Shown here: positions 9,974-34,680 of the stretch, one piece after another
Numbering within the stretch: the stretch's first letter is position 1
Layout of the letters: each line of letters begins with the position of its first letter
DNA from: Candidatus Eiseniibacteriota bacterium
GTDB lineage: Bacteria; Eisenbacteria; RBG-16-71-46; CAZAMP01
Direction of reading: 5' to 3'
NCBI GenBank assembly: GCA_965224245.1
Contig: OZ245046.1
Coordinates: 2,848,001 to 2,912,000 of the forward strand
Length of the DNA: 64,000 nucleotides
Made by a program: the position numbers and the translations under genes
Notes under the pieces: model-generated
Told to the model about the DNA's origin: nothing
The model's input: only the letters and a program-made list of their open reading frames with translations
Databases searched by the model: none

Positions 9974-12648
9974 CCGGTGTTTCGCATCCCGGCCGCGATG
10001 CCGTTCGCGGTCACGACGAACGCCGCGGCGAGCGTCTCACGAGCGCGCGGATCGTCGCCGGCGCGCAGCCGGCGCAGCACCTCGACCTGCACGAGGTTGA
10101 TCGGATCCACGTAGGGATTGCGCACGCCGATGGACCGGGTCAGGACCGCGCTGTCCTGGAGAAGCGCGTCCCGCCGGCGACAGGACAGGACCGCGCGCCG
10201 CGTTCGCTCGAACGCCTCGTGCAGGTCCCGTCCGATCGGTCGGAGCGCCTCGTCCACGAGGACGGACTGGTAGTGAGCGCTGATCCGTGTCTCCACCTTG
10301 GCCAGCACCATCTCGACGAGATCCAGGGTCGTGGCGAAGAACGGCCACTCGCGAGCCATCTCGCCCAGGTCGGAGGCGCCGCTCACCGCGTCGCGCGGCG
10401 AGTCTTCACCGCCGTGCCCCGCGGCCGCGAGTGCCCGATCGGTTCCCAGCCAGCCCGGAAGCAGGAGCCGCATCTGCATCCACGCGAACACCCACGGGAT
10501 CGCGCGCAGCGACTCGAGATCGTCGGTGGGCGCGCGGCGGGCCGGCCGACTCCCGATGTTGATCAGACCCAGCTCGGGCTCCGGCGTCGCCTGCCGGAAG
10601 AAGCGAACGAAGCCCGGTCGCGCCAGGGTCTCGCGATACGCCCCTGCCCCGGCGGCCGCGATCTCGTCCATGCACGCGCGCCACGTGGGCTTCGGGGCCG
10701 CCGGCGGAATCAGCGTCGCCTCCAGCGTCGCGGTCACGTAGAGCTCGAGCGTCCGGAGCGCGATGTCCGTGAGCCCGAACTTGCCCTGTATGGCCTCGCC
10801 CTGCTCCGTGACGCGAAGCCGCCCCGCCACCGTCCCCGGCGGCTGGGATCGGATCGCGTGATGCGTCGGTCCTCCGCCGCGGCCGATCGAGCCTCCCCGA
10901 CCGTGGAACAGGGTCAGCCGCACGCCGGCACTCCCGGCCACCGAGAGGAGCGACTCCTGGGCGCCGTAGAGCGCCCAGGCCGCGGCGAGCCGCCCGCAGT
11001 CCTTGGCCGAGTCCGAGTAGCCCAGCATCACCTCGATCCGATCCCCGATGCGGGTGCGTGCCTCGTCGATCCCGAGGAGATCGGTCATCGTGACCGGAGC
11101 GGCATCGAGGTCGTCCAGCGTCTCGAACAGCGGGACGATGCGGAGCGGAGACGTCACGCGCGCGGCATGCTGAAGTGCCATCACCGCCAGCACGTCGGAC
11201 GTCGCCGCCGCGTGCGAGATGACGTACGCCCCGAACGACTCGGGCTCCTGGGCGGCGATCATCGCGAACGTGTCGAGCACCTCGCGCACGTCCTCGCCGG
11301 CGTTCCCGGCCTCCAGCGTCAACGGACGCCGATCCGACAGCACGTCCACGAGGTAGGCCCGGCGGCCGGCCTCGTCGAGCGACCCGTAGTCCCCGTGCCC
11401 CTGCGCTCGCGCGAGCGCGGCTATCGCCGCGTGGTGGCGCGAGGCATCCTGGCGCACGTCGAGCCGCGCCAGGACCAGCCCGAAGGCCTCGAGCCTCCAG
11501 AGGAGGTCACGGAGCCGGCCGTGCGCCAAGACACCGGCGCCACGCGCGTGGAGCGAACGCCAGCACGCGTCGAGCGGCTCGCGCAGCTCGTTCGCTTCGC
11601 GGTAGATCGGGCCGGGTGGTGGCTCGACTCCCCGGTAGCGCGCGTCGCACCACGCGATCGTTCGCTCCAGTCGGTCCTGGACCTCGCGCAGGATCACCCG
11701 GTAGGGCTCGCGCGCACCGCCGGCCCGCGTGATCACCTCGGGGGTGGCGCGATCCAGCGAGAGCTCCATGCGAAGCGCCGCGACCTCGTCCCGGTACAGC
11801 GAGGCCGCCATCCAGCGCGTGAGAAAGCAGGTGCGCCGCGTCACCTCGGCGGTGACGTTGGGATTGCCGTCGCGGTCTCCGCCCATCCACGAGCCGAACG
11901 TGACCGGGACCGCGTCGAGCTCCAGCGGCTCCGCCCCGTGTGCGACCAGCACGCGATTCAGCAGCGCGAGCAGCTTCGGCACCGTGGCCCAGAGCGATTG
12001 CTCGAAGACCAGAAGGCCCGACCGCGCCTCGTCGAGCGGATCCGGTCGTTCGTGCCGTACCTCGTCGGTGCACCATATCGACGTGATGACGCGCTCGAGC
12101 GACTCGCGAACGGCGTCTCGCTCCTCGGGCAGGAGATCGGAGCGATCACGCTCGGCCAGGAGCCGGCCGATCTCCGCGTACTGCTGCAGCAGCGTGCGCC
12201 GGTTGATCTCCGTCGGGTGTGCGGTCAGGACCAGTTCGACCCGCATCGAGCGGATCGTCTCTCGCACGACGTCGATCTCGATGCCGGCATCGATGAGCCG
12301 GCGCACGGACTCCTCGATCGAGCCGCGCTGGGGTCGCCCGTCGGATGCCAGCCGATAGTCTCGGCGGCGGCGAATGCGATGATGCTGCTCGGCGATGTTG
12401 GCCAGCGACAGGAAGTGGGAGAACGCACGAGCAATCGGCACGGTCTCGCCGATCGGAAGCGCCGCCATGAAGTCGCGAAGCCGCTCCCAGGCTCGGTCAT
12501 CCCCGGTGGCCGCGGTCTTCGAGAGCTCCCGCACCCGTTCCACGGTCTCGAGGAGCATGTCTCCGCCATGCGCGCGCAACGTCTCGCCCAGGATGACGCC
12601 GAGCATGCGCACGTCGTCGCGAAGTGGCGCGTGAGGGTCATTCGTCAC
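9970..12648 (-). CDS. ppc: Phosphoenolpyruvate carboxylase
   Basis: Signature motifs VLTAHPTE, SWMGGDRDGNP, VMLGYSDSAKD, FHGRGGSIGRGG, LRAIPWVFAW and C-terminal GIAAGMRNTG. GTG start at 12648 follows an AAGGAAG RBS. Confidence 0.97.
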   Translation of the reverse strand: MTNDPHAPLRDDVRMLGVILGETLRAHGGDMLLETVERVRELSKTAATGDDRAWERLRDFMAALPIGETVPIARAFSHFLSLANIAEQHHRIRRRRDYRLASDGRPQRGSIEESVRRLIDAGIEIDVVRETIRSMRVELVLTAHPTEINRRTLLQQYAEIGRLLAERDRSDLLPEERDAVRESLERVITSIWCTDEVRHERPDPLDEARSGLLVFEQSLWATVPKLLALLNRVLVAHGAEPLELDAVPVTFGSWMGGDRDGNPNVTAEVTRRTCFLTRWMAASLYRDEVAALRMELSLDRATPEVITRAGGAREPYRVILREVQDRLERTIAWCDARYRGVEPPPGPIYREANELREPLDACWRSLHARGAGVLAHGRLRDLLWRLEAFGLVLARLDVRQDASRHHAAIAALARAQGHGDYGSLDEAGRRAYLVDVLSDRRPLTLEAGNAGEDVREVLDTFAMIAAQEPESFGAYVISHAAATSDVLAVMALQHAARVTSPLRIVPLFETLDDLDAAPVTMTDLLGIDEARTRIGDRIEVMLGYSDSAKDCGRLAAAWALYGAQESLLSVAGSAGVRLTLFHGRGGSIGRGGGPTHHAIRSQPPGTVAGRLRVTEQGEAIQGKFGLTDIALRTLELYVTATLEATLIPPAAPKPTWRACMDEIAAAGAGAYRETLARPGFVRFFRQATPEPELGLINIGSRPARRAPTDDLESLRAIPWVFAWMQMRLLLPGWLGTDRALAAAGHGGEDSPRDAVSGASDLGEMAREWPFFATTLDLVEMVLAKVETRISAHYQSVLVDEALRPIGRDLHEAFERTRRAVLSCRRRDALLQDSAVLTRSIGVRNPYVDPINLVQVEVLRRLRAGDDPRARETLAAAFVVTANGIAAGMRNTG

Positions 12649-12754
12649 GTGGGCTTCCTTCGGGCTCCGACTCCTCGCCGGGCCTGGCACGGCTGCCTCC
12701 TCGCCCCTGATTGCAAACGAATGTATCACAAGCCCTTAGACACACCTAGACGCG

Positions 12755-12805
12755 CGTCGCTCCGGCGGCGTCGCTCCGGCGGCGTCGCTCCGGCTGACGG
12801 CGTGG
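12755..12805. repeat. Short tandem repeat CGTCGCTCCGGC(GG) x3; last copy duplicates 12841-12863
   Basis: Read directly: cgtcgctccggcgg cgtcgctccggcgg cgtcgctccggctgacggcgtgg. Confidence 0.85.
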
Positions 12806-12817
12806 GGTTCCAGTGCC

Positions 12818-12960
12818 GGGTCGACGAGGGTGGGGCGCTCCGTCGCTCCGGCTGACGGCGTGGCCGTGAGATCGGGTGGGGGCATCACTTCGTGTCGGAG
12901 CGGCTTTGCGAGACACCGGTGTCGCACGAGTCGCGACTCCGGCCCCACCCTCGCCGACCC
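12818..12960 (-). repeat. Solo, inverted, diverged copy of the 144-bp hairpin element (19-bp terminal inverted repeat)
   Basis: Core gtgagatcgggtgggggcatcacttcgtgtcggagcggc is the reverse complement of the array core. Arms 12818-12836 and 12942-12960 pair at 18/19 positions. Confidence 0.85.
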
Positions 12961-13270
12961 TACGTCGGGGGCCCGGGGCCGAGCGGCCATCGCACGGGGT
13001 CGGTCACGCCTGACGCCGGCATCGACCGCGGCGGTCCGGCTCAGCGGGTGACGTCACCACGCATGGCTGCGGCGGACGCACGATGCGCGGTCGTGACCGC
13101 TCACCGCTGGACACCGTGCGACCCGTGGCCCGCCAGCGGAGCACGTGTACCCGAGTACACGGCGACCGAAAGCCGACTGGACGGGGCGATCTCCGTGCCC
13201 CTCACATCGTCGGATGCGCAACTCCGGCGTACCTGTCACCCGCCGCAGAAACCGATGCGAGCCGAACGCC

Positions 13271-14126
13271 CCCCCGGCGCTCCCGACACGCGCCCCCGCC
13301 GTCGGGAACACCCGGGTGCAACACCCCACGAGGACCCCCGCACCCAATCGGCACCCCCGACGCCGACCCCGGAAAACACTCCCGAGACCCCCACCGCGTG
13401 AGGGAGCGACGGGGGTGGTGTCGCCGGAGCGACTGATGCGACCCCCACGTCCCCCGGAGCCCCTCCGACACGAAATGATGCCCCCACCCGATCTCACGCC
13501 CACACCGCCAGCCGGAGCGCAGGCGACACCACCCCCGACGCTCCCGACACGCGCCCCCGCCGTCGGGAACACCCGGGTGCAACACGCCACGAGCACCCCC
13601 GCGGCCAATCGGCACCCCCGACGCACCCCCCGGAAACACTCCCGAGACCCCCCCCGCGTGAGGGAGCGGCGGGGGTGGTGTCGCCGGAGCGACTGATGCG
13701 ACCCCACGTCCCCCCGGAGCCGCTCCGACACGAAATGATGCCCCCAACCGATCTCACGCCCACACCGCCAGCCGGAGCGCAGGCGACACCACCCCCGTCG
13801 CTCCCGACACGCGCCCCCGCCGTCGGGAACACCCGGGTGCAACACGCCACGAGCACCCCCGCGGCCAATCGGCACCCCCGACGCACCCCCCGGAAAACAC
13901 TCCCGAGACCCCCCCCCGCGTGAGGGAGCGGCGGGGGTGGTGTCGCCGGAGCGACTGATGCGACCCCCACGTCCCCCCGGAGCCGCTCCGACACGAAATG
14001 ATGCCCCCACCCGATCTCACGCCCACACCGCCAGCCGGAGCGCAGGCGACACCACCCCCGACGCTCCCGACACGCGCCCCCGAGGGAACGCTGGCGACAC
14101 CACCCCCGGCGCTCCCGACACGCGCC
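13271..14126 (+). repeat. Tandem array of three ~261-bp units plus partial arms; each unit has a 144-bp element with 24-bp terminal inverted repeats (REPIN/BIME/MITE-like)
   Basis: Units at about 13271-13531, 13532-13791 and 13792-14054. Arms gggagcgRcgggggtggtgtcgcc / ggcgacaccacccccgWcgctccc (e.g. 13402-13425 with 13522-13545). Confidence 0.9.
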
Positions 14127-14222
14127 ACGGACACGCGCCCCCGACCACGCTTGCGGCGCGGAACCATCGCCGTTTAGACTCGCGGTCCATCCATGTCGTT
14201 TCGCTCATGAGGAGGTCTCGCC

Positions 14223-14393
14223 ATGCCAGGACGCCGCATGGCCCGGAGCGACGCTCCGTACGTCGTGCCATCGGATCCCAACGGCGAGATCATCGGTCGG
14301 AGCGAGATGTACTCGTCGAAGTCGGTGTGCGAGAAGGGAACCTCTTCGGTCAAACGCAACGCCCGTGGCGCCCGCATCGAAGATCTCACGTGA
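14223..14393 (+). CDS. YegP/DUF1508-family small protein (56 aa; not in ORF track; N-terminus looks degenerate)
   Basis: GAGGAGG RBS, then MPGRRMARSDAPYVVPSDPNGEIIGRSEMYSSKSVCEKGTSSVKRNARGARIEDLT*. Matches the DUF1508 pattern NGEII.xSE.Y.SK...E.GI.SVK.NA. Confidence 0.75.
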   Translation: MPGRRMARSDAPYVVPSDPNGEIIGRSEMYSSKSVCEKGTSSVKRNARGARIEDLT

Positions 14394-14485
14394 TCGATCC
14401 GGGGCGACAGTCGCTCTCGCCCGGCGATCCGACGATCCCGGGGATCGTCATGCTCGCGTCAACATCCACCCCGTGAGAGACGTCC

Positions 14486-16018
14486 ATGTCCCGTGTCCTC
14501 GGCCCTCACCCCCTTCGCACCCTCGCGTCGCTCGCACGCGGATCGGCGGGAATCTCGGTGCCACCCCCGTGTCGTGACGCGGTCGACGCGTCGCGCCGGC
14601 TCGTCGAGGAGATCCTGACCGAGGATGTCGCCGTCTACGGCGTGAACACCGGGTTCGGCAAGCTCGCCGACCGCTCGATCTCGCGCGACGAGCTGGAGAC
14701 GCTCCAGCGAAACCTGGTCCTCTCGCATGCCTCCGGCGTCGGCGCCCCGCTCGGCGCGCGCACGGTCCGGCTGGTCCTGGCGCTGAAGCTATCGAGTCTC
14801 GCGCGAGGCGCATCGGGGGTCCGCTGGGAGATCCTGGAGCTTCTCGAGGCCATGCTCGAGCGGGACGTCGTTCCCGTCGTGCCGTCGCAGGGCTCGGTGG
14901 GCGCGTCGGGCGATCTGGCGCCGCTCGCCCATCTGGCGTCGGTGCTGATCGGACACGGCGAGGCCGAGGTGGCGGGCCGTCGGCTTCCCGCCCGTGAGGC
15001 CCTGGCTTCGGTCGGCCTCGAGCCCGTGACCCTCCACCCGAAGGAAGGCCTCGCTCTCATCAACGGGACGCAGGTCTCCACCGCGCTGGCCATCGAGGCG
15101 CTCGTCGACACCGAACGGCTGTTTCACACCGCGCTCGTCACCGGCGCTCTCAGCATCGACGCCGCACTCGGCTCGGACGGGCCGTTCGGTCCTACAGTTC
15201 ATCGCCTGCGAGGCCATCGGGGCCAGATCGACGTGGCCGCCGCGCTCACCCGGCTGATCGCGGGGAGCCAGATTCGAGAGTCCCATCGTGCGTGCACGCG
15301 CGTGCAGGATCCCTACTCGCTTCGCTGCATGCCGCAGGTGATGGGCGCGTGTCTCGACCAGCTGCGACACGCGGCCTCGGTGCTGGCGATCGAGTCCACC
15401 GCCGTGACCGACAACCCGCTCGTCCTCGTCGAGGATCGCGCGATCGTATCCGGCGGCAACTTCCACGCCGAGCCCGTCGCGCTCGTGGCCGATCAGATGG
15501 CGATTGCGATCGCGGAGATCGGCTCACTCTCCGAGCGGCGCGTGGCCCTCCTCGTGGATCCGGCGCTGAGCGGGCTGCCTCCGTTCCTGACGCCGGACGC
15601 CGGCGTCAACTCCGGCTACATGATCGCGCAGGTGACCGCGGCGGCCCTCGTGTCCGAGAACAGACAACGCAGCCACCCCGCGTCGGTGGACAGCATTCCG
15701 ACCAGCGCCAACCAGGAGGACCACGTGTCGATGGCCACGCACGGGGCTCGCCGGCTGCTCGACATGGTGGCGAACCTCCGGAGCGTGCTGGCCGTCGAGC
15801 TCCTGGTCGCCGCACAGGGCGTGCACCTTCGCGCACCGCTGGTCACGAGCGCGCCGCTGGCGTCGGTCCTGGCCGTACTCCGTGAGCGTGTTCCGCCGCT
15901 CGACTCCGATCGCCTGATGGCTCCCGACATCGACGCGGCGGCCGCGCTGATTGAATCGGGGACGATCACGGCCGCCGTGGGATCGGTCTCGATGCCCGAC
16001 ATCCTCGAGCCGGTCTGA
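14486..16018 (+). CDS. hutH: Histidine ammonia-lyase
   Basis: [19 protein letters not shown]-forming [48 protein letters not shown]. Confidence 0.95.
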
Positions 16019-16027
16019 GCCGGTCGA

Positions 16028-17782
16028 TCACCGGAGAACCGTGAGCCGCCGCGTCGACGCGCCGTCGGGCGTCGTCAATCGAACACCGTAGATCCCCGGC
16101 GGCAGACCCGACGTATCCACGAGGATCTCGTTCGCTCCCGGGGGCGCCGGTCGGGCCGCGATGGTCCGGACCTCGCGCCCCCGGGCGTCGAAGAGCGCCA
16201 GTCGGACCTCACCCGCGCGCGCCAGCGTGAACCCGAGTCGGGACACGCCGCGCGACGGGTTCGGGGCCGGCGGTGCCAGACGAGGCCCGGGCCACGACGC
16301 CGGCGTCGAAACCGCCAGGACGTCTCCCTCGACGATCGTCAGGTGCTGGCGCACCGGCAGGTTCGTGTACGTCTCCTCGAGCCCGGACGGCCAGCGAACC
16401 GAGAGGCTCGTGACCACCGAGGCATCACCCAGTCCGAAGTCGGCCGCAAGCGAGCTCTGCGCGTTGTACCCGGTCTGACCGGACACCTCGCGCATCTGCG
16501 TGCGCGACGTGCCCCCGATCGTCGCCTCGACCTCGACCCGCGTCCCGATGGCGGACGGGTTCGACACGGTGCCGACGCAGGTGACCGAGAGCCAGGCGTT
16601 CGCGGGACCGAGGTCGTTTCGGTAGAGATAGTTGCTCTGTGCGACGGGCTGATCGCCGTTGGTGACGAAGAGATCCAGATCGCCGTCCGCGTCCACGTCA
16701 CACCAGGTGGATCCATTCGATCGCCCGCCGTCGCCCACCGGCGGGCCCGACACGACCGCCGTGAAACCGCCGGATCCGTCGTTCAGGAAGAACGCGTTGC
16801 TCTCGTTCAGATCTCGTGAGACGAAGAGGTCGAGATCGCCGTCGTTGTCGCTGTCGCCGAACGCCCCGCAGACCGACGCGCCACCGGACGTGACCACCGG
16901 ACCCGTGACGATCCGGACGAAGACGCCGGCGCCCTCGTTCCGGTACAGGAAGTCGTTCTCGCCGGAGTAGTTCGTCACGAAGAGATCGAGATCCAGATCT
17001 CCGTCGAGGTCCCCCCAGCTTCCGCCGACCGAGTTGCCGCCGTCGGTGGTGACGGGTGTGCCGACGACGGCGACGAGCGAGCCTCCGTCGTTTCGATAGA
17101 GGAAGTTGTTCGCCCCGGCGCCGAAGTTCGCGTTGGCCACGAAGAGATCCGGATCCCCGTCGTCGTCGTAGTCCCCGAAGGCCGAGCCGAGCGACGCGCC
17201 GCCGGCGGTGACGGCGTCACCGGCGAGGATCTTCTCGAAGACCCCGCCGCCCAGGTTCCGGTAGAGCGCGTTGTTCTGGCCGAAGTTGGCCACGAAGAGA
17301 TCCAGATGCCCGTCGCCGTCCACGTCGGCCGGGCAGGCGCTCCAGGATCCGGCGGCGTCGGTCACGAGCACGCCGGTGGTCACGCGCTCGAGGATGCCCG
17401 CGCCGTCGTTCACGTAGAAGAAGTTCGGCACGACGAGGCTGCCGCCACCGTTCACGACCACCAGATCGGGCCATCCATCCCCGGTGAAGTCGGCGAACGA
17501 GCCTCCGTACGAGAAGCCGCCATCCACCACCGGATCCCCGGACAGCTCCTGGGTGAACGATCCCGCGCCGTCGTTCAGATAGAGGAGGTTGTTCTGCGAG
17601 ATGATGTTCGTGACCGCGAGGTCGGGCGAGCCGTCACCGTCCACGTCGTTCCAGAGACAGCCCTCGGAGTAGCGCCCGTCGGTGACGAGAGGGCCGGTGA
17701 CGATGCGGACGAACGGCTGCGCGTCCGCGATGGAGCCGATCGCGAGCGCCAGCGCCGCCGCCAGCGAGAGTCGATGGGTCAT
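16028..17782 (-). CDS. Secreted FG-GAP repeat / ASPIC-UnbV (CRTAC1-like) protein with T9SS/FlgD-like CTD
   Basis: Signal peptide, repeated DxDGDGDxDLFV.N...N.LYRN, 'AIGTRVEV...FGLG...VRWPSG', C-terminal 'PNPSRG...LFDARGREV...PGIY'. Confidence 0.9.
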   Translation of the reverse strand: MTHRLSLAAALALAIGSIADAQPFVRIVTGPLVTDGRYSEGCLWNDVDGDGSPDLAVTNIISQNNLLYLNDGAGSFTQELSGDPVVDGGFSYGGSFADFTGDGWPDLVVVNGGGSLVVPNFFYVNDGAGILERVTTGVLVTDAAGSWSACPADVDGDGHLDLFVANFGQNNALYRNLGGGVFEKILAGDAVTAGGASLGSAFGDYDDDGDPDLFVANANFGAGANNFLYRNDGGSLVAVVGTPVTTDGGNSVGGSWGDLDGDLDLDLFVTNYSGENDFLYRNEGAGVFVRIVTGPVVTSGGASVCGAFGDSDNDGDLDLFVSRDLNESNAFFLNDGSGGFTAVVSGPPVGDGGRSNGSTWCDVDADGDLDLFVTNGDQPVAQSNYLYRNDLGPANAWLSVTCVGTVSNPSAIGTRVEVEATIGGTSRTQMREVSGQTGYNAQSSLAADFGLGDASVVTSLSVRWPSGLEETYTNLPVRQHLTIVEGDVLAVSTPASWPGPRLAPPAPNPSRGVSRLGFTLARAGEVRLALFDARGREVRTIAARPAPPGANEILVDTSGLPPGIYGVRLTTPDGASTRRLTVLR

Positions 17783-32961: not shown

Positions 32962-34680
32962 CTATCGCACCAGCACGATCCGGCGAGCGGCCCTCGACGG
33001 CCCCGACCGGAGCTCGATCACGTACGTCCCCGACGCGACGGCGCTGCCCGCGTCGTCGACGCCGTCCCACTCCACCGCGTGCTCGCCCCCTCCGATCCAA
33101 CGGTCCTCGGCCAGCACGCGCACCAGGCGCCCGGCCGCGTCGAACACGCGCAGTGACGCCGGTGCGGCCGCCGCCGTCCGGATCGTGATCGTGGTCCGGG
33201 GATTGAACGGGTTCGGGCGGCTCGACAGCGCGACGGCGATGGCGACGGGCGGCGCCGGCACGGCCAGCGGCTCGCCTTCCACGACCGTGATCCGCTGGTT
33301 CGCGGGCAGGTCGACGTGCACGTCGACGATGCCCGACGGCCAGGTCACGATCAGCGAGTCGACTGTCGCCGCCGTGCCGAGGCCGAACGACTGCGTCATG
33401 AAGCTCTGAGACACGTACGAGGTTCCCGGCACGACGTCGCGGATCTGGCTCGTCTCCCCGGTCACCGCCCGGAGGCGTGTCCCCACGCCCGAGCGATTCG
33501 ACACCGTCCCCACGACGTCGACCTGGAGCCAGCCGCCGGTCTCGCCGTCGTTGCGAAAGAGCTTGTTGGGCTGGAGCTCGTTGGCCAGGTACAGGTCGAG
33601 ATCGCCGTCGCCGTCGTAGTCGGCCCAGGCCGCACCTTCGCCCGAGCTCGCGTCGCCCAGGGGTGGCACCGTCACGTCGACGAGCACGCCGTCGTCGTTC
33701 CGGAAGAGCTTGTTGGCGGTCAACAGCGCGTTCGACGAGTACAGGTCGAGATCGCCGTCGTAGTCGAAGTCGCCCCACGCGCCGCTGCGGCTGAGCGCGG
33801 TGTCGGCCAGCGCCGGCGTCGTGATGTCGACGAACACGTCCCCGTCGTTCCGGAAGAAGCGGTTGGCGGCACCGCCGTTGGTCACGTAGAGATCCAGATC
33901 TCCGTCGTTCTCGACGTCGGCCCAGGATCCGCCGTAGCTCGGGGAGGGGTCGTCGATCGGACCGGCGGTGACCTCGACGAAGACGCCGCCGTCGTTGCGA
34001 TGGAGCCGGTTCCCGGCCGATCGGTTGGCGAGGTAGATGTCGAGGTCGCCGTCGTTGTCGTAGTCGGCGATGGCCACGCCGCGCGTCTGCTCGTCGTCGT
34101 CGAGCGGGGGAACGGTGACGTCGACGAAGACGTCGCCGCCCTCGTTGCGGAACAGGTGGTTGATGTCGGGCGATCCGATGTTGCCGAGATAGAAGTCCAC
34201 CCGGCCGTCCCCGTCGTAGTCCAGCCACGAGCCCGAGTACCCGAGCCCGACGTCGTCGAGCGGTGGTGCGGTGACGTCGACGAAGTCGCCGTCGTCATTG
34301 CGGATGAGACGGTTCCCGGGTCCGCGGTTGACGAGGTACACGTCGAGATCACCGTCGTTGTCGATGTCGCACCACGAGGCGACGCGGGTGCGGCCGGTGT
34401 TCCCGAGAGGACCGGTGGTCACGTCCACGAACGTGCCGGCGTCGTTCCGGAACAGGTTGTTGGCCTGGTTGTCGTTGGAGACGTAGAGATCGGGATCTCC
34501 GTCGCCGTCGACGTCCGCCCACGAGACGCCGTAGCTCGCATCGGGTGCGGCCAGGAGAGCCGGCGTCACGTCCACGAAGACCGGGTCGGCGGCATGGGAC
34601 AGCGATGCGCTCACCGTCAGCGTGAGCGCCGCCCGGGCGAGCGAGGACGCATGGTGACGATCGAGCCGCTGCAATCTCAC
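32962..34680 (-). CDS. Secreted FG-GAP repeat / ASPIC-UnbV protein with FlgD-Ig CTD
   Basis: Seven W.D.DGDGD.DLY..N...N.LFRND repeats, 'FGLG...TWPSG', 'PNPFNPRT...FDAAGRLVR...WDGVDDAG..VASGTY'. Confidence 0.9.
   Translation of the reverse strand: MRLQRLDRHHASSLARAALTLTVSASLSHAADPVFVDVTPALLAAPDASYGVSWADVDGDGDPDLYVSNDNQANNLFRNDAGTFVDVTTGPLGNTGRTRVASWCDIDNDGDLDVYLVNRGPGNRLIRNDDGDFVDVTAPPLDDVGLGYSGSWLDYDGDGRVDFYLGNIGSPDINHLFRNEGGDVFVDVTVPPLDDDEQTRGVAIADYDNDGDLDIYLANRSAGNRLHRNDGGVFVEVTAGPIDDPSPSYGGSWADVENDGDLDLYVTNGGAANRFFRNDGDVFVDITTPALADTALSRSGAWGDFDYDGDLDLYSSNALLTANKLFRNDDGVLVDVTVPPLGDASSGEGAAWADYDGDGDLDLYLANELQPNKLFRNDGETGGWLQVDVVGTVSNRSGVGTRLRAVTGETSQIRDVVPGTSYVSQSFMTQSFGLGTAATVDSLIVTWPSGIVDVHVDLPANQRITVVEGEPLAVPAPPVAIAVALSSRPNPFNPRTTITIRTAAAAPASLRVFDAAGRLVRVLAEDRWIGGGEHAVEWDGVDDAGSAVASGTYVIELRSGPSRAARRIVLVR

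What the first reader, a model, noticed from the sequence alone, without database searches (positions are those of the whole stretch)
12818..12960. Inverted solo copy of the hairpin element with compensatory arm changes
Seen: a 143-bp copy (144 bp in the array) on the opposite strand. Its arms GGGTCG(A)CGAGGGTGGGGC / GCCCCACCCTCG(C)CGACCC differ from the array arms GGGAGCG(R)CGGGGGTGGTGTCGCC at several positions, yet still pair at 18/19. The one mismatch is at the equivalent CG-N-C position where the array stems are also mismatched or wobbled. The central ~40 nt are nearly invariant. Inference: structure is maintained on both arms together, as expected for a structured ncRNA or a REPIN/MITE-like ssDNA element. 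I do not recognise the family.
Basis: partly seen in the sequence, partly recalled or inferred. Interest (0 to 1): 0.78.

Follow-up and report, generated by a model that had tools for sequence, protein, structure and literature searches.

The report
Large paired REP-like hairpin repeats
The flagged 143-base hairpin is real and belongs to a private family of 22 large palindromic repeats scattered between genes of this one bacterium, most like the "selfish" REP/MITE-type repeats known from other bacteria, though no enzyme that could move them was found.

Summary
Window 12818-12960 is an inverted copy of the hairpin unit of the 260-nt array at 13271-14082. Its arms differ from the array arms but still pair at 18 of 19 positions.

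It is not a true solo. Together with the array it forms a 1.37-kb non-coding composite (12765-14132) found at four loci. The whole genome holds 22 full copies at 8 intergenic loci. They fall into two arm subtypes that nearly always sit as an inverted pair around a variable centre.

The outer stem covaries strongly: 98.8% of cells paired, and 8 of 18 pairs changed on both sides. One stem position is habitually unpaired.

A second family of about 120 nt (8 copies) shares the same unpaired flanks, ...CCCCGACGYA|stem...stem|GGMAC, and the same pair geometry.

Nothing matched in Rfam, in 190 related genomes, or in two pattern scans of the genome and metagenome collections. The genome has no Y1/RAYT transposase, and no RNA data exist.

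Best reading (about 0.55): a lineage-specific, oversized REP/REPIN- or MITE-like palindromic repeat, spread as a tail-to-tail heterodimer and locally amplified in tandem. A structured RNA role is not excluded.

The parts
12765..14132 (.). Whole 1.37-kb non-coding composite repeat: outer short repeats, type-1 hairpin, centre, type-2 hairpin array, extra arm
   Evidence: the same stretch recurs on C1. At 5298828-5297579 it is 99.2% identical on the left and 94.1% over the array. At 3970661-3971883 it is 82.7% and 94.8%. At 2578165-2578553 plus 2580021-2580504 it is 98.7% and 96.9%, split by an IS110. The flanks differ at each place. No ORF with coding-type GC3 lies inside.
12754..12795 (+). Three tandem 14-nt units GCGTCGCTCCGGCG on the outer side of the type-1 hairpin; they repeat the loop box CCGGAGCGAC (read on the minus strand)
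   Evidence: period 14, 2.9 copies, 100%, D4 and D5 (23-nt duplicate of the loop segment at 12783-12805 and 12841-12863).
12806..12817 (-). Outer unpaired flank GGCACTGGAACC (the 'GGMAC' tail)
   Evidence: ggcac or ggaac follows the 3' arm in all 9 type-1 copies listed, and related tails follow in the type-2 and family-2 copies.
12818..12960 (-). The flagged element: type-1 hairpin, 19-bp arms with one G.T (A.C on the plus strand), 105-nt loop
   Evidence: (I24). CM R1 hit at 149.2 bits.
12961..12971 (-). Inner unpaired tag: CCCCCGACGTA on the minus strand, directly 5' of the stem (GTAG spans the junction)
   Evidence: the same ccccgacgYa|G flank occurs in the A, B, D and F type-1 copies, as cccccgacaca in the 570-kb copy, and in three family-2 copies. 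The base before the stem is A in 26 of 27 copies listed.
12961..13270 (.). Centre of the composite, 310 nt, non-coding; holds a small palindrome GTGTAC-CCGA-GTACAC at 13145-13160
   Evidence: 99% identical at locus F, 83% at D. It is unrelated to the centres of loci C, E and G. At locus A an IS110 sits in the small palindrome.
13271..14082 (+). Tandem array, 3.1 units of 260 nt (116-nt spacer plus 144-nt type-2 hairpin)
   Evidence: 96% matches, score 1503; D1, D2.
13402..13545 (+). Type-2 hairpin 1 (24-bp arms, A.A at the variable position, 96-nt loop)
   Evidence: CM 154 bits.
13662..13805 (+). Type-2 hairpin 2 (G.T at the variable position)
   Evidence: CM 154 bits.
13924..14068 (+). Type-2 hairpin 3 (G.A at the variable position)
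   Evidence: CM 151.1 bits.
14093..14116 (+). Extra, arm-only copy of the 3' arm, 48 nt beyond the last hairpin; gives its 5' arm an alternative partner
   Evidence: I14-I16: 24 nt, 96% complementary to each 5' arm; the same +48-nt extra arm follows the arrays at loci A, D and F and both copies at locus C.
13307..13318 (+). AACACCCGGGTG box in each array spacer (also 13568 and 13828), a half-site of the palindrome TTGCACCCGGGTGCAA
   Evidence: 11 exact copies on contig C1. Seven lie in the array spacers at loci A, B and D. The others are at locus E, at 1.74 Mb, and three in a 21-nt tandem array at C1:873580-873870.

Best explanation
The element is one member of a genome-specific family of large palindromic intergenic repeats. 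These work like REP/REPIN or MITE-type selfish DNA.

Each unit is a 19-24-bp G+C-rich stem around a 96-105-nt loop. It is bracketed by short unpaired motifs: ...CCCCGACGYA before the stem and GGMAC after it.

The unit that spread is (inferred) a tail-to-tail heterodimer. It has one type-1 and one type-2 hairpin, with the tagged ends facing inward, around a centre of variable content.

In the lineage seen in the window, the type-2 side was then amplified in tandem together with its flank. The whole 1.37-kb composite was copied to four places.

Shown:
- the anatomy and copy number;
- the two subtypes and the pair geometry;
- covariation of the stem;
- absence from all other genomes searched;
- absence of coding capacity.

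Inferred:
- The stem is kept because a folded single strand is what is recognised or selected. That strand could be DNA during copying, or RNA when read through from neighbouring genes.
- Spread was by transposition-like copying, by an enzyme now lost or unrecognised.
- Later homogenisation came from duplication and gene conversion.
- Today most copies sit just past stop codons and are probably co-transcribed as 3'-UTR hairpins.
For: (1) Dispersed and intergenic. There are 22 full copies at 8 loci (BLAST; nhmmer, 22 full plus 11 partial rows; CM, 22 hits at E<=3e-12). The flanks are unrelated housekeeping genes: ppc and hutH in the window, and others such as accA, asnB and an aminopeptidase, named from the look of their translations only.

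(2) The composite 12765-14132 recurs at 94-99% identity in different flanks.

(3) Pair rule. At 7 of 8 loci a copy on one strand faces one or more copies on the other strand, always with the tagged end inward. Loci ABDF, E and G each hold one type-1 and one type-2 copy. Type 1 is a supported clade (96/97) and the array copies another (99/99).

(4) Stem covariation.

(5) A second family, unrelated in stem and loop, has 8 copies including 2 pairs. It carries the same flanks and the same pair orientation. This mirrors REP classes that share a terminal tag.

(6) Placement. Copies lie 0-65 nt beyond stop codons, mostly between convergent or co-directional genes. The same is described for REPs (PMC3733652, section read).

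(7) Tandem clusters of near-identical units, including flanks 'plus an additional REP', are described for REPINs (PMC3116915, passages). Here that corresponds to 3 units plus an extra arm.

(8) Lineage restriction:
- 0 of 40 relatives by BLAST;
- 0 of 40 by CM;
- 0 of 150 genomes of the class by CM;
- 0 matches for two patterns in genome contigs and in metagenome contigs. The looser pattern finds 18 of the 22 own copies with no false hit in the own genome.

(9) No Rfam family.
Against: - No mobilising enzyme was found. Pfam Y1_Tnp gives 0 hits at E<=0.01; the best is E 0.216 at 14.1 bits on a small contig. The same search rings in 6 of 14 control genomes.
- No target-site duplication is visible at the composite's edges or at single hairpins.
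- The two outer tips of the composite are not alike.
- No empty site or polymorphism could be examined.
- Copies at loci C, E, G and H are only 72-84% like the window's copies. Recent mobility is therefore not shown, and the four near-identical composites could stem from segmental duplication or gene conversion. D and F share a 1.95-kb duplication that includes a neighbouring gene.
- Non-Watson-Crick stem pairs are mostly G.T on the strand that carries the tag: 11-12 events against 3 A.C, one-sided binomial 0.029 for 11 of 14. That is the strand NOT carried by transcripts running in from neighbouring genes, so the RNA side of the story is not coherent.
- All covariation comes from paralogous copies in one genome, which are not independent. 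TIR-type elements would show the same pattern without any folded form.
Confidence: 0.55

Rival explanations
1. A family of structured non-coding RNAs, either sRNA genes or cis-acting 3'/5'-UTR elements. Each hairpin would be an RNA module, and the 260-nt array would be a tandem set of promoter-plus-RNA units or a multi-hairpin UTR.
For: - Stem covariation.
- G.T excess on one strand.
- A loop core of about 60 nt that is better conserved than the arms: 0.79 against 0.67-0.75 mean pairwise identity among 9 lineages.
- Very stable folds.
- Placement next to gene ends.
- Authors of the REP survey read G.T pairing as a sign of RNA function (PMC3733652, section read).
Against: - No sigma-70-like promoter and only one weak terminator-like site in 12500-14500.
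- The loop interior has no helix supported by two-sided changes beyond the type-1/type-2 split.
- Nothing in Rfam.
- Not conserved in any of 190 related genomes, unlike most functional RNA families.
- The strand favoured by G.T pairs is antisense to transcripts entering from the adjacent genes.
- The same flanks bracket a second family with an unrelated stem and loop.
Confidence: 0.2
2. DNA-level architectural or regulatory sites. The hairpin arms, the direct CCGGAGCG boxes at both ends of the loop, and the CACCCGGGTG box in the spacers would be binding sites for a nucleoid protein or regulator, as BIMEs bind IHF and gyrase.
For: - The CCGGAGCG(AC) box recurs inside both loop ends and as 14-nt tandem repeats outside the type-1 copy.
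- The spacer box equals the unit of a separate tandem array of about 14 units of 21 nt at C1:873580-873870.
- In the window the composite lies between divergent genes, where promoters lie.
Against: - A dimeric protein site conserves sequence, not just complementarity. Here the arms change in a compensatory way between subtypes and loci.
- Most copies lie between gene 3' ends, not at promoters.
- No cognate protein is identified.
Confidence: 0.1
3. Recombination sites. The inverted pair would bound an invertible or excisable DNA segment acted on by a site-specific recombinase.
For: - Inverted pairs flank a variable centre at 7 family-1 loci and 2 family-2 loci.
- At locus G the pair brackets a whole gene.
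- One stem position is habitually unpaired, as in folded recombination sites such as integron attC (recalled, not tested).
Against: - Partners are only about 77-80% identical.
- The centre has the same orientation relative to type 1 and type 2 in all 4 composite copies.
- No recombinase gene lies next to any locus.
Confidence: 0.05

Closest known systems
REP / REPIN elements and their GTAG- or CGTC-tagged superfamilies (Bertels & Rainey 2011, PMC3116915; Nunvar et al. 2013, PMC3686654; Di Nocera et al. 2013, PMC3733652)
   Same: - Intergenic, G+C-rich palindromes whose two sides change in a compensatory way.
- An unpaired tag directly before the stem. Here GTAG or GCAG occurs in 6 of about 15 lineages, and the flank CGACGTAG also contains the complement of CGTC.
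- A short conserved tail at the other end.
- Several families with different stems but the same tag in one genome.
- Inverted dimers with tags inside ('TT' dimers) made of unlike partners (heterodimers).
- Tandem clusters that include flanking DNA plus one extra half-unit.
- Placement just downstream of genes between convergent or co-directional ORFs.
- Frequent G.T pairs.
- An IS110-family insertion in the element cluster (IS621 targets REPs; seen only in the reference list of PMC3184786).
   Different: - Size: stems of 19-28 bp and loops of 76-105 nt (120-145 nt in all), against stems of 6-13 bp and 20-40 nt in all for REPs.
- The arms are not themselves small palindromes.
- The tag is degenerate; only the final AG is constant.
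- The element is asymmetric, with the tag on one side only, unlike a symmetric REPIN.
- Pair partners are 275-1676 bp apart, against 20-100 bp.
- Only 22 + 8 copies.
- No RAYT in the genome.
Bacterial MITEs of the Correia/CREE and ERIC type (review by Delihas 2011, PMC3184786, passages read)
   Same: - 100-160-bp non-coding units (Correia about 104-157 bp, ERIC about 127 bp).
- Terminal inverted repeats of about 20-26 bp that fold into one long hairpin.
- Low to moderate copy number.
- Often at gene 3' ends and co-transcribed.
- No transposase known for some of them.
   Different: - No target-site duplication (Correia and ERIC-type have TA).
- No sequence similarity.
- The obligate inverted pairing of two subtypes and the 260-nt tandem arrays are not features of those families.
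BIMEs of E. coli (recalled, and mentioned in PMC3686654 and PMC3184786)
   Same: Higher-order mosaics of palindromic units of two kinds in alternating orientation, some reiterated in tandem.
   Different: BIME units are short REPs a few tens of bases apart. Here the tandem part repeats one orientation only.

Membership tests
REP / REPIN | Conserved unpaired 5' tetranucleotide GT[A/G]G next to the palindrome | tested here: inconclusive
   GTAG occurs in the A/B/D/F type-1 copies and in two family-2 copies. GCAG occurs in three lineages. The rest are ACAG, CCAG, CTAG, TGAG or GGAG. The A before the stem is constant (26 of 27). The tag is on one side of the hairpin only.
REP / REPIN | Each REP is itself a short palindrome (stem 6-13 bp); a REPIN is two such REPs in inverted orientation | tested here: not met
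   The 19-24-nt arms pair with each other across a 96-105-nt loop, and the arm sequences shown are not self-complementary.
REP / REPIN | A cognate RAYT (Y1 HUH transposase) in the genome, flanked by the repeats | tested here: not met
   Pfam PF01797 searched in six frames over the 97%-complete genome gives no hit at E<=0.01 (best E 0.216, 14.1 bits). The genes next to all 30 hairpins are unrelated. Loss of the RAYT is described for some REP-bearing strains (PMC3733652), so this lowers membership, not analogy.
MITE | Terminal inverted repeats around a short non-coding core | tested here: met
   (19-28 bp with 0-2 non-pairs). No ORF is conserved across copies; indels break the frames.
MITE | Target-site duplication flanking the element | tested here: not met
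   The bases next to the stem are conserved between loci, so they are part of the element. No direct repeat was seen outside them or at the composite's edges.
MITE | An autonomous IS in the same or related genomes with matching ends | tested here: not met
   Searches find the arms only in the 22 copies and in arm fragments. The single IS110 at locus A sits inside the centre and is single-copy.
Any Rfam RNA family | Covariance-model match at or near the gathering score | tested here: not met
   0 matches at gathering score in the window; over 10 loci at E<=1, the only hit is tfoR at 22.6 bits against a gathering score of 70, and it does not overlap a hairpin.
Integron attC sites | R''/R' core sites (GTTRRRY) at the stem base, same-orientation arrays separating different cassettes, and an intI gene | not tested
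   By eye only. The stem ends read GGGTCG.../...CGACCC, the array spacers are identical to one another, and the pairs are inverted. No intI search was run.

The most novel reading that the evidence does not exclude
The two hairpin families are substrates of an as yet unrecognised, non-Y1 single-strand-specific nuclease or recombinase. The enzyme would read a shared unpaired tag (CGACGTA|G ... GGMAC) at the foot of very long hairpins and copy them as tail-to-tail heterodimers able to carry cargo. One pair brackets a whole secreted-protein gene. This would be a new kind of hairpin-ended mobile module in a poorly studied lineage.
Probability: 0.12. Interest if true: 0.7.

Novelty: new variant of a known kind. 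Interest (0 to 1): 0.4.

Why it matters
Palindromic intergenic repeats are well studied mainly in Proteobacteria. There, a dedicated transposase (RAYT) explains the GTAG-tagged ones, while other classes still lack any known mobilising enzyme.

This genome offers a small, tractable system: 30 copies in two families that share the same tag. It has unusually long stems, a strict pairing rule, clear compensatory evolution and no RAYT. That makes it a useful test case for two questions: how such repeats persist or move without a known enzyme, and whether the folded form under selection is DNA or RNA.

Practically, the repeats break short-read assemblies at their edges. They also create long spurious ORFs across the array, which annotators should mask.

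Tried and rejected
- RNA evidence: no RNA holder is listed for window 11000-16000.
- Laying Logan contigs of 4 DNA runs (one study): the contigs stop at the repeat edges (12794, 14102). The joints seen are contigs of the paralogous loci. Nothing could be learned about inversion, excision or copy-number variation.
- Synteny or empty-site comparison: ppc was not found with this query in the one same-family genome. It was found only at 35-44% identity in two genomes of the same class, which is too distant.
- Taxonomy from the protein atlas with the hutH product: uninformative.
- Coding potential: no ORF with coding-type GC3 in the composite or in the centres of loci C and E. The centre of the family-2 pair at 4.84 Mb gave no convincing ORF.
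- Shared centre: the centres of loci C, E and G are unrelated to the window's centre by blastn and tblastx. The only matches are two short tblastx hits (23 and 26 aa) between the C and G centres.
- Promoter and terminator scan: 0 promoter-like sites and 1 weak terminator-like site.
- Replication orientation: GC skew puts the origin near 4.95 Mb and the terminus near 1.65 Mb. The five single copies split 3:2 between leading and lagging template, so there is no rule. The four composites do share one orientation relative to the fork, 4 of 4, which is weak.
- Further families: a scan for other hairpins with the same flanks found only the known copies plus 8 unrelated hits with no shared sequence. 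Other long-stem hairpins are single-copy by eye and were not followed.
- Interior RNA helices on either strand: none has two-sided support.
- Literature: searches turned up no description of such elements. A text search cannot find an unnamed sequence family, so this is weak.

Full report
**What is at the coordinates**

Window 12818-12960 has 19-nt arms, GGGTCGACGAGGGTGGGGC and GCCCCACCCTCGCCGACCC. They are 18/19 complementary and separated by 105 nt.

The element is the reverse complement of the hairpin part of a 260-nt tandem repeat at 13271-14082 (3.1 units, 96% matches). That repeat's three hairpins (13402-13545, 13662-13805, 13924-14068) have 24-nt arms and 96-97-nt loops.

Against array copy 1, the arms are identical at only 14/21 and 13/21 columns. 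A loop core of about 63 nt is identical at 57/63 (alignment).

Either strand folds far better than its shuffles:
- as RNA: -91.6 and -79.5 kcal/mol for the flagged copy, -68.5 and -94.6 for array copy 1, z -4.3 to -5.8;
- as DNA: z -4.0 to -4.8.

**Genome-wide picture**

The window is C1:2848001-2912000 of a 6.94-Mb, 69% G+C genome in 27 contigs, 97% complete. I did not check that.

BLAST, an nhmmer profile (22 full-length and 11 partial rows) and a covariance model built from 21 copies (search: 22 hits, E 1e-22 to 3e-12) agree on 22 full copies at 8 loci of contig C1.

There are two arm subtypes:
- type 1, like the flagged copy;
- type 2, like the array.

In a maximum-likelihood tree type 1 is a supported clade (96/97) and the eleven array copies another (99/99). 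The type-2 grouping as a whole is weakly supported.

I call 'sense' the strand with the C-rich loop (the minus strand for the flagged copy). At 7 of 8 loci a sense-minus copy lies to the left of one to three sense-plus copies. The 5' ends of the sense strands therefore face each other across a centre of 275 to 1676 bp.

Loci A, B (the window), D and F, and also E and G, pair a type 1 with a type 2. Locus C pairs two type-1 copies. The copy at 570 kb is single.

**The composite**

Window 12765-14132 as a block recurs three times:
- locus F: 99.2% over 505 nt and 94.1% over 746 nt;
- locus D: 82.7% and 94.8%;
- locus A: 98.7% over 389 nt and 96.9% over 488 nt. Here there are two array units, and the centre is interrupted by a single-copy IS110-family element (385-aa ORF; Pfam Transposase_20 8e-20, DEDD_Tnp_IS110 3e-14).

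The flanks differ between A, B and D/F. D and F share a 1.95-kb duplication that takes in a neighbouring gene for a secreted protein of about 230 aa.

The centres of loci C, E and G are unrelated to the window's centre. At G the centre is a 418-aa gene with a weak secretion-tail match.

I found no target-site duplication, and the two outer tips of the composite are not alike.

The last array unit at A, B, D and F, and both copies at C, are followed 48 nt downstream by an extra 3' arm. The outer side of the flagged copy carries a duplicate of a loop segment and three 14-nt repeats of the loop box CCGGAGCGAC.

**Structure conservation**

On the 21-copy alignment (18 distinct rows), the 18-pair outer stem gives these figures:

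| Measure | Observed | Control |
|---|---|---|
| Cells paired | 98.8% | 87.1% in column shuffles (0/500 reach it); 46-60% with the partner slid by 1-3 columns |
| Pairs changed on both sides | 8 of 18 | 7 of 500 shuffles reach it |
| Covariation score | 0.359 | 0.133 (0/500) |

Examples:
- the 570-kb copy pairs perfectly over 20 bp with AGGCG/CGCCT where the array has GGGGG/CCCCC;
- the type-2 copy at locus E pairs perfectly over 24 bp with ACGGT/ACCGT.

These are paralogues in one genome, so the counts overstate independence.

It differs even among the three array units of the window.

Inside the loop I found no helix with two-sided support on either strand. The loop's 3' half is conserved as sequence.

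I grouped identical changes in near-identical copies as one event. On that count, non-Watson-Crick stem pairs are G.T on the sense strand 11-12 times and A.C 3 times, families 1 and 2 together (one-sided binomial 0.029 for 11 of 14). This is a weak hint that the sense strand is the one that folds.

**A second family with the same flanks**

A scan for long-stem hairpins turned up a family of about 120 nt, with arms GCGAGYCGGGATGGGGGCATG and a nested G+C hairpin in the loop. It has 8 copies. Two pairs among them again have the tagged ends inward: one between genes that look like clpX and lon, and one at 4.84 Mb.

Its stem and loop are unrelated to family 1, but the unpaired flanks are the same:
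- ccccgacgta or ccccgacgca directly before the stem. This is identical over 10 nt to the flank of the flagged copy.
- ggaac or ggac after the stem.

Over the 27 copies listed, the base before the stem is A in 26.

A further scan for the same flank-plus-stem arrangement found no third family.

**Context**

In the window the composite lies between divergent ppc (PEPcase, 6e-299) and a 57-aa ORF followed by hutH (Lyase_aromatic, 5e-188).

Elsewhere the copies mostly follow stop codons closely:
- family 1: gaps of 0, 12, 27, 30, 41, 56 and 111 nt;
- family 2: gaps of -4, -2, 14, 20, 32, 44, 45 and 65 nt.

These sites lie between convergent or co-directional genes. Because of the pair rule, a transcript entering a pair from outside would carry the antisense (G-rich-loop) version. 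The four single copies with a clear nearest gene end are oriented the same way; a fifth is a tie.

**Where else it occurs**

Nowhere that I could search.

| Search | Result |
|---|---|
| BLAST, 40 relatives (1 of the same family, 39 of the same class) | 0 |
| Covariance model, the same 40 | 0 |
| Covariance model, 150 genomes drawn across the class | 0 |
| Strict loop pattern, genome contigs and metagenome contigs | 0 and 0 |
| Looser arm-loop-arm pattern, same two collections | 0 and 0 |

The looser pattern hits 18 of the 22 own copies and nothing else in the own genome.

Family 2 gave only 30-48-nt chance matches in relatives.

Rfam gave 0 at gathering score in the window. Over ten loci at E<=1 it gave only an off-target tfoR hit at 22.6 bits against a gathering score of 70.

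These absences are limited by exact-pattern matching and by the fact that repeats are often unassembled in draft genomes.

**Mobilising enzyme**

The genome has no Y1/RAYT-type transposase by Pfam PF01797 in six frames. The best hit is E 0.216. The controls ring in 6 of 14 known genomes at the default threshold.

No transposase or recombinase gene lies next to any hairpin, other than the IS110 inside locus A's centre.

**Comparison with what is known**

I read the following:
- PMC3686654, passages: a REP is GT[A/G]G plus a palindrome, and RAYT genes are flanked by inverted REPs.
- PMC3184786, passages: the MITE table and features.
- PMC3733652, abstract and sections 5, 6, 14 and 15:
  - GTAG- and CGTC-tagged superfamilies;
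  - degenerate tags;
  - conserved tails;
  - HH and TT dimers, homo- and heterodimers;
  - clusters that include flanking DNA;
  - placement downstream of ORFs between convergent and co-directional genes;
  - G.T pairs read as a sign of RNA function;
  - CGTC repeats lacking a dedicated transposase, and REPtrons missing from some species.
- PMC6006769, search listing only.

The present elements share almost all of these organisational traits. They differ as follows:
- They are four to six times larger.
- Their arms are not themselves palindromes.
- They carry the tag on one side only.
- Pair partners lie hundreds of bases apart.
- They number 30, not hundreds.
- They have no RAYT.

In size and in TIR length they resemble Correia or ERIC-type MITEs, but they lack a target duplication. 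I therefore do not file them as REPINs or MITEs. They work like them.

**Verdict**

The most likely explanation (about 0.55) is a lineage-specific, oversized REP/MITE-like palindromic repeat that spread as a tail-to-tail heterodimer and was amplified in tandem. Its mobilising activity is lost or unrecognised.

A structured-RNA role (about 0.2) is the main rival and cannot be settled without RNA data. DNA-binding architecture (about 0.1) and recombination sites (about 0.05) are less likely.

Novelty is moderate: a new variant of a well-known kind of bacterial repeat.

Noticed in passing
G000:C1 867262-867903, 2248344-2248515, 3281857-3282026, 3702798-3702971, 4487099-4487244, 4838383-4839502 (loci L082-L087): A second hairpin family of about 120 nt with 8 copies, two of them as inverted pairs. 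Its stem and loop differ from the window's family, but the unpaired flanks (ccccgacgYa|stem|ggaac) are the same. It is absent from Rfam and from 40 relatives.
   Followed up: partly
G000:C1 873580-873870: A tandem array of about 14 units of 21 nt built on the palindrome TTGCACCCGGGTGCAA. The same GAACACCCGGGTGCAAC box occurs once in every 116-nt spacer of the hairpin arrays and in the centre of locus E. It may be a regulator's binding site.
   Followed up: no
G000:C1 3970733-3970764 (L002 about 817-848): In the type-1 copy of locus D, a 32-nt segment of the loop core is exactly inverted relative to all other copies. It looks like a template-switch event inside the hairpin.
   Followed up: partly
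L016 1802-2959 (G000:C1 2578554-2579978); equivalent to window about 13153: A single-copy IS110-family element is inserted in the loop of the small palindrome GTGTAC-CCGA-GTACAC of the composite's centre. About 80 nt of the centre are missing there.
   Followed up: partly
window 14224-14394 (+): A 57-aa ORF with a strong GAGGAGG ribosome-binding site just upstream of hutH. It has no Pfam match at E<=0.001. From memory it resembles a single YegP/DUF1508-type unit.
   Followed up: no
window 16028-17782 (-); L012 1883-3139; genes next to loci C, E, H: Several genes beside hairpin loci carry matches to the secretion-system C-terminal sorting domain (Por_Secre_tail), below Pfam's cut-off in both cases tested. 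The large proteins next to loci C and E are 66% identical paralogues. This may only reflect how common such genes are in this genome.
   Followed up: no
window 13054-14010 (-) and other ORFs over 12736-14476: Long open frames of up to 318 aa run across the repeat array on both strands. They are artefacts of the C/G-rich repeats and would be mis-called as genes.
   Followed up: partly
G000 contigs C2-C27: The 26 small contigs (2.8-74 kb) have 57-69% G+C, all but one below the 69% of the 6.45-Mb main contig. None carries a hairpin copy. They may be plasmids, islands or binning contaminants.
   Followed up: no
window 33589-33869: A 150-nt-period tandem repeat (1.9 copies, 78% matches) reported by TRF. 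It was not examined.
   Followed up: no
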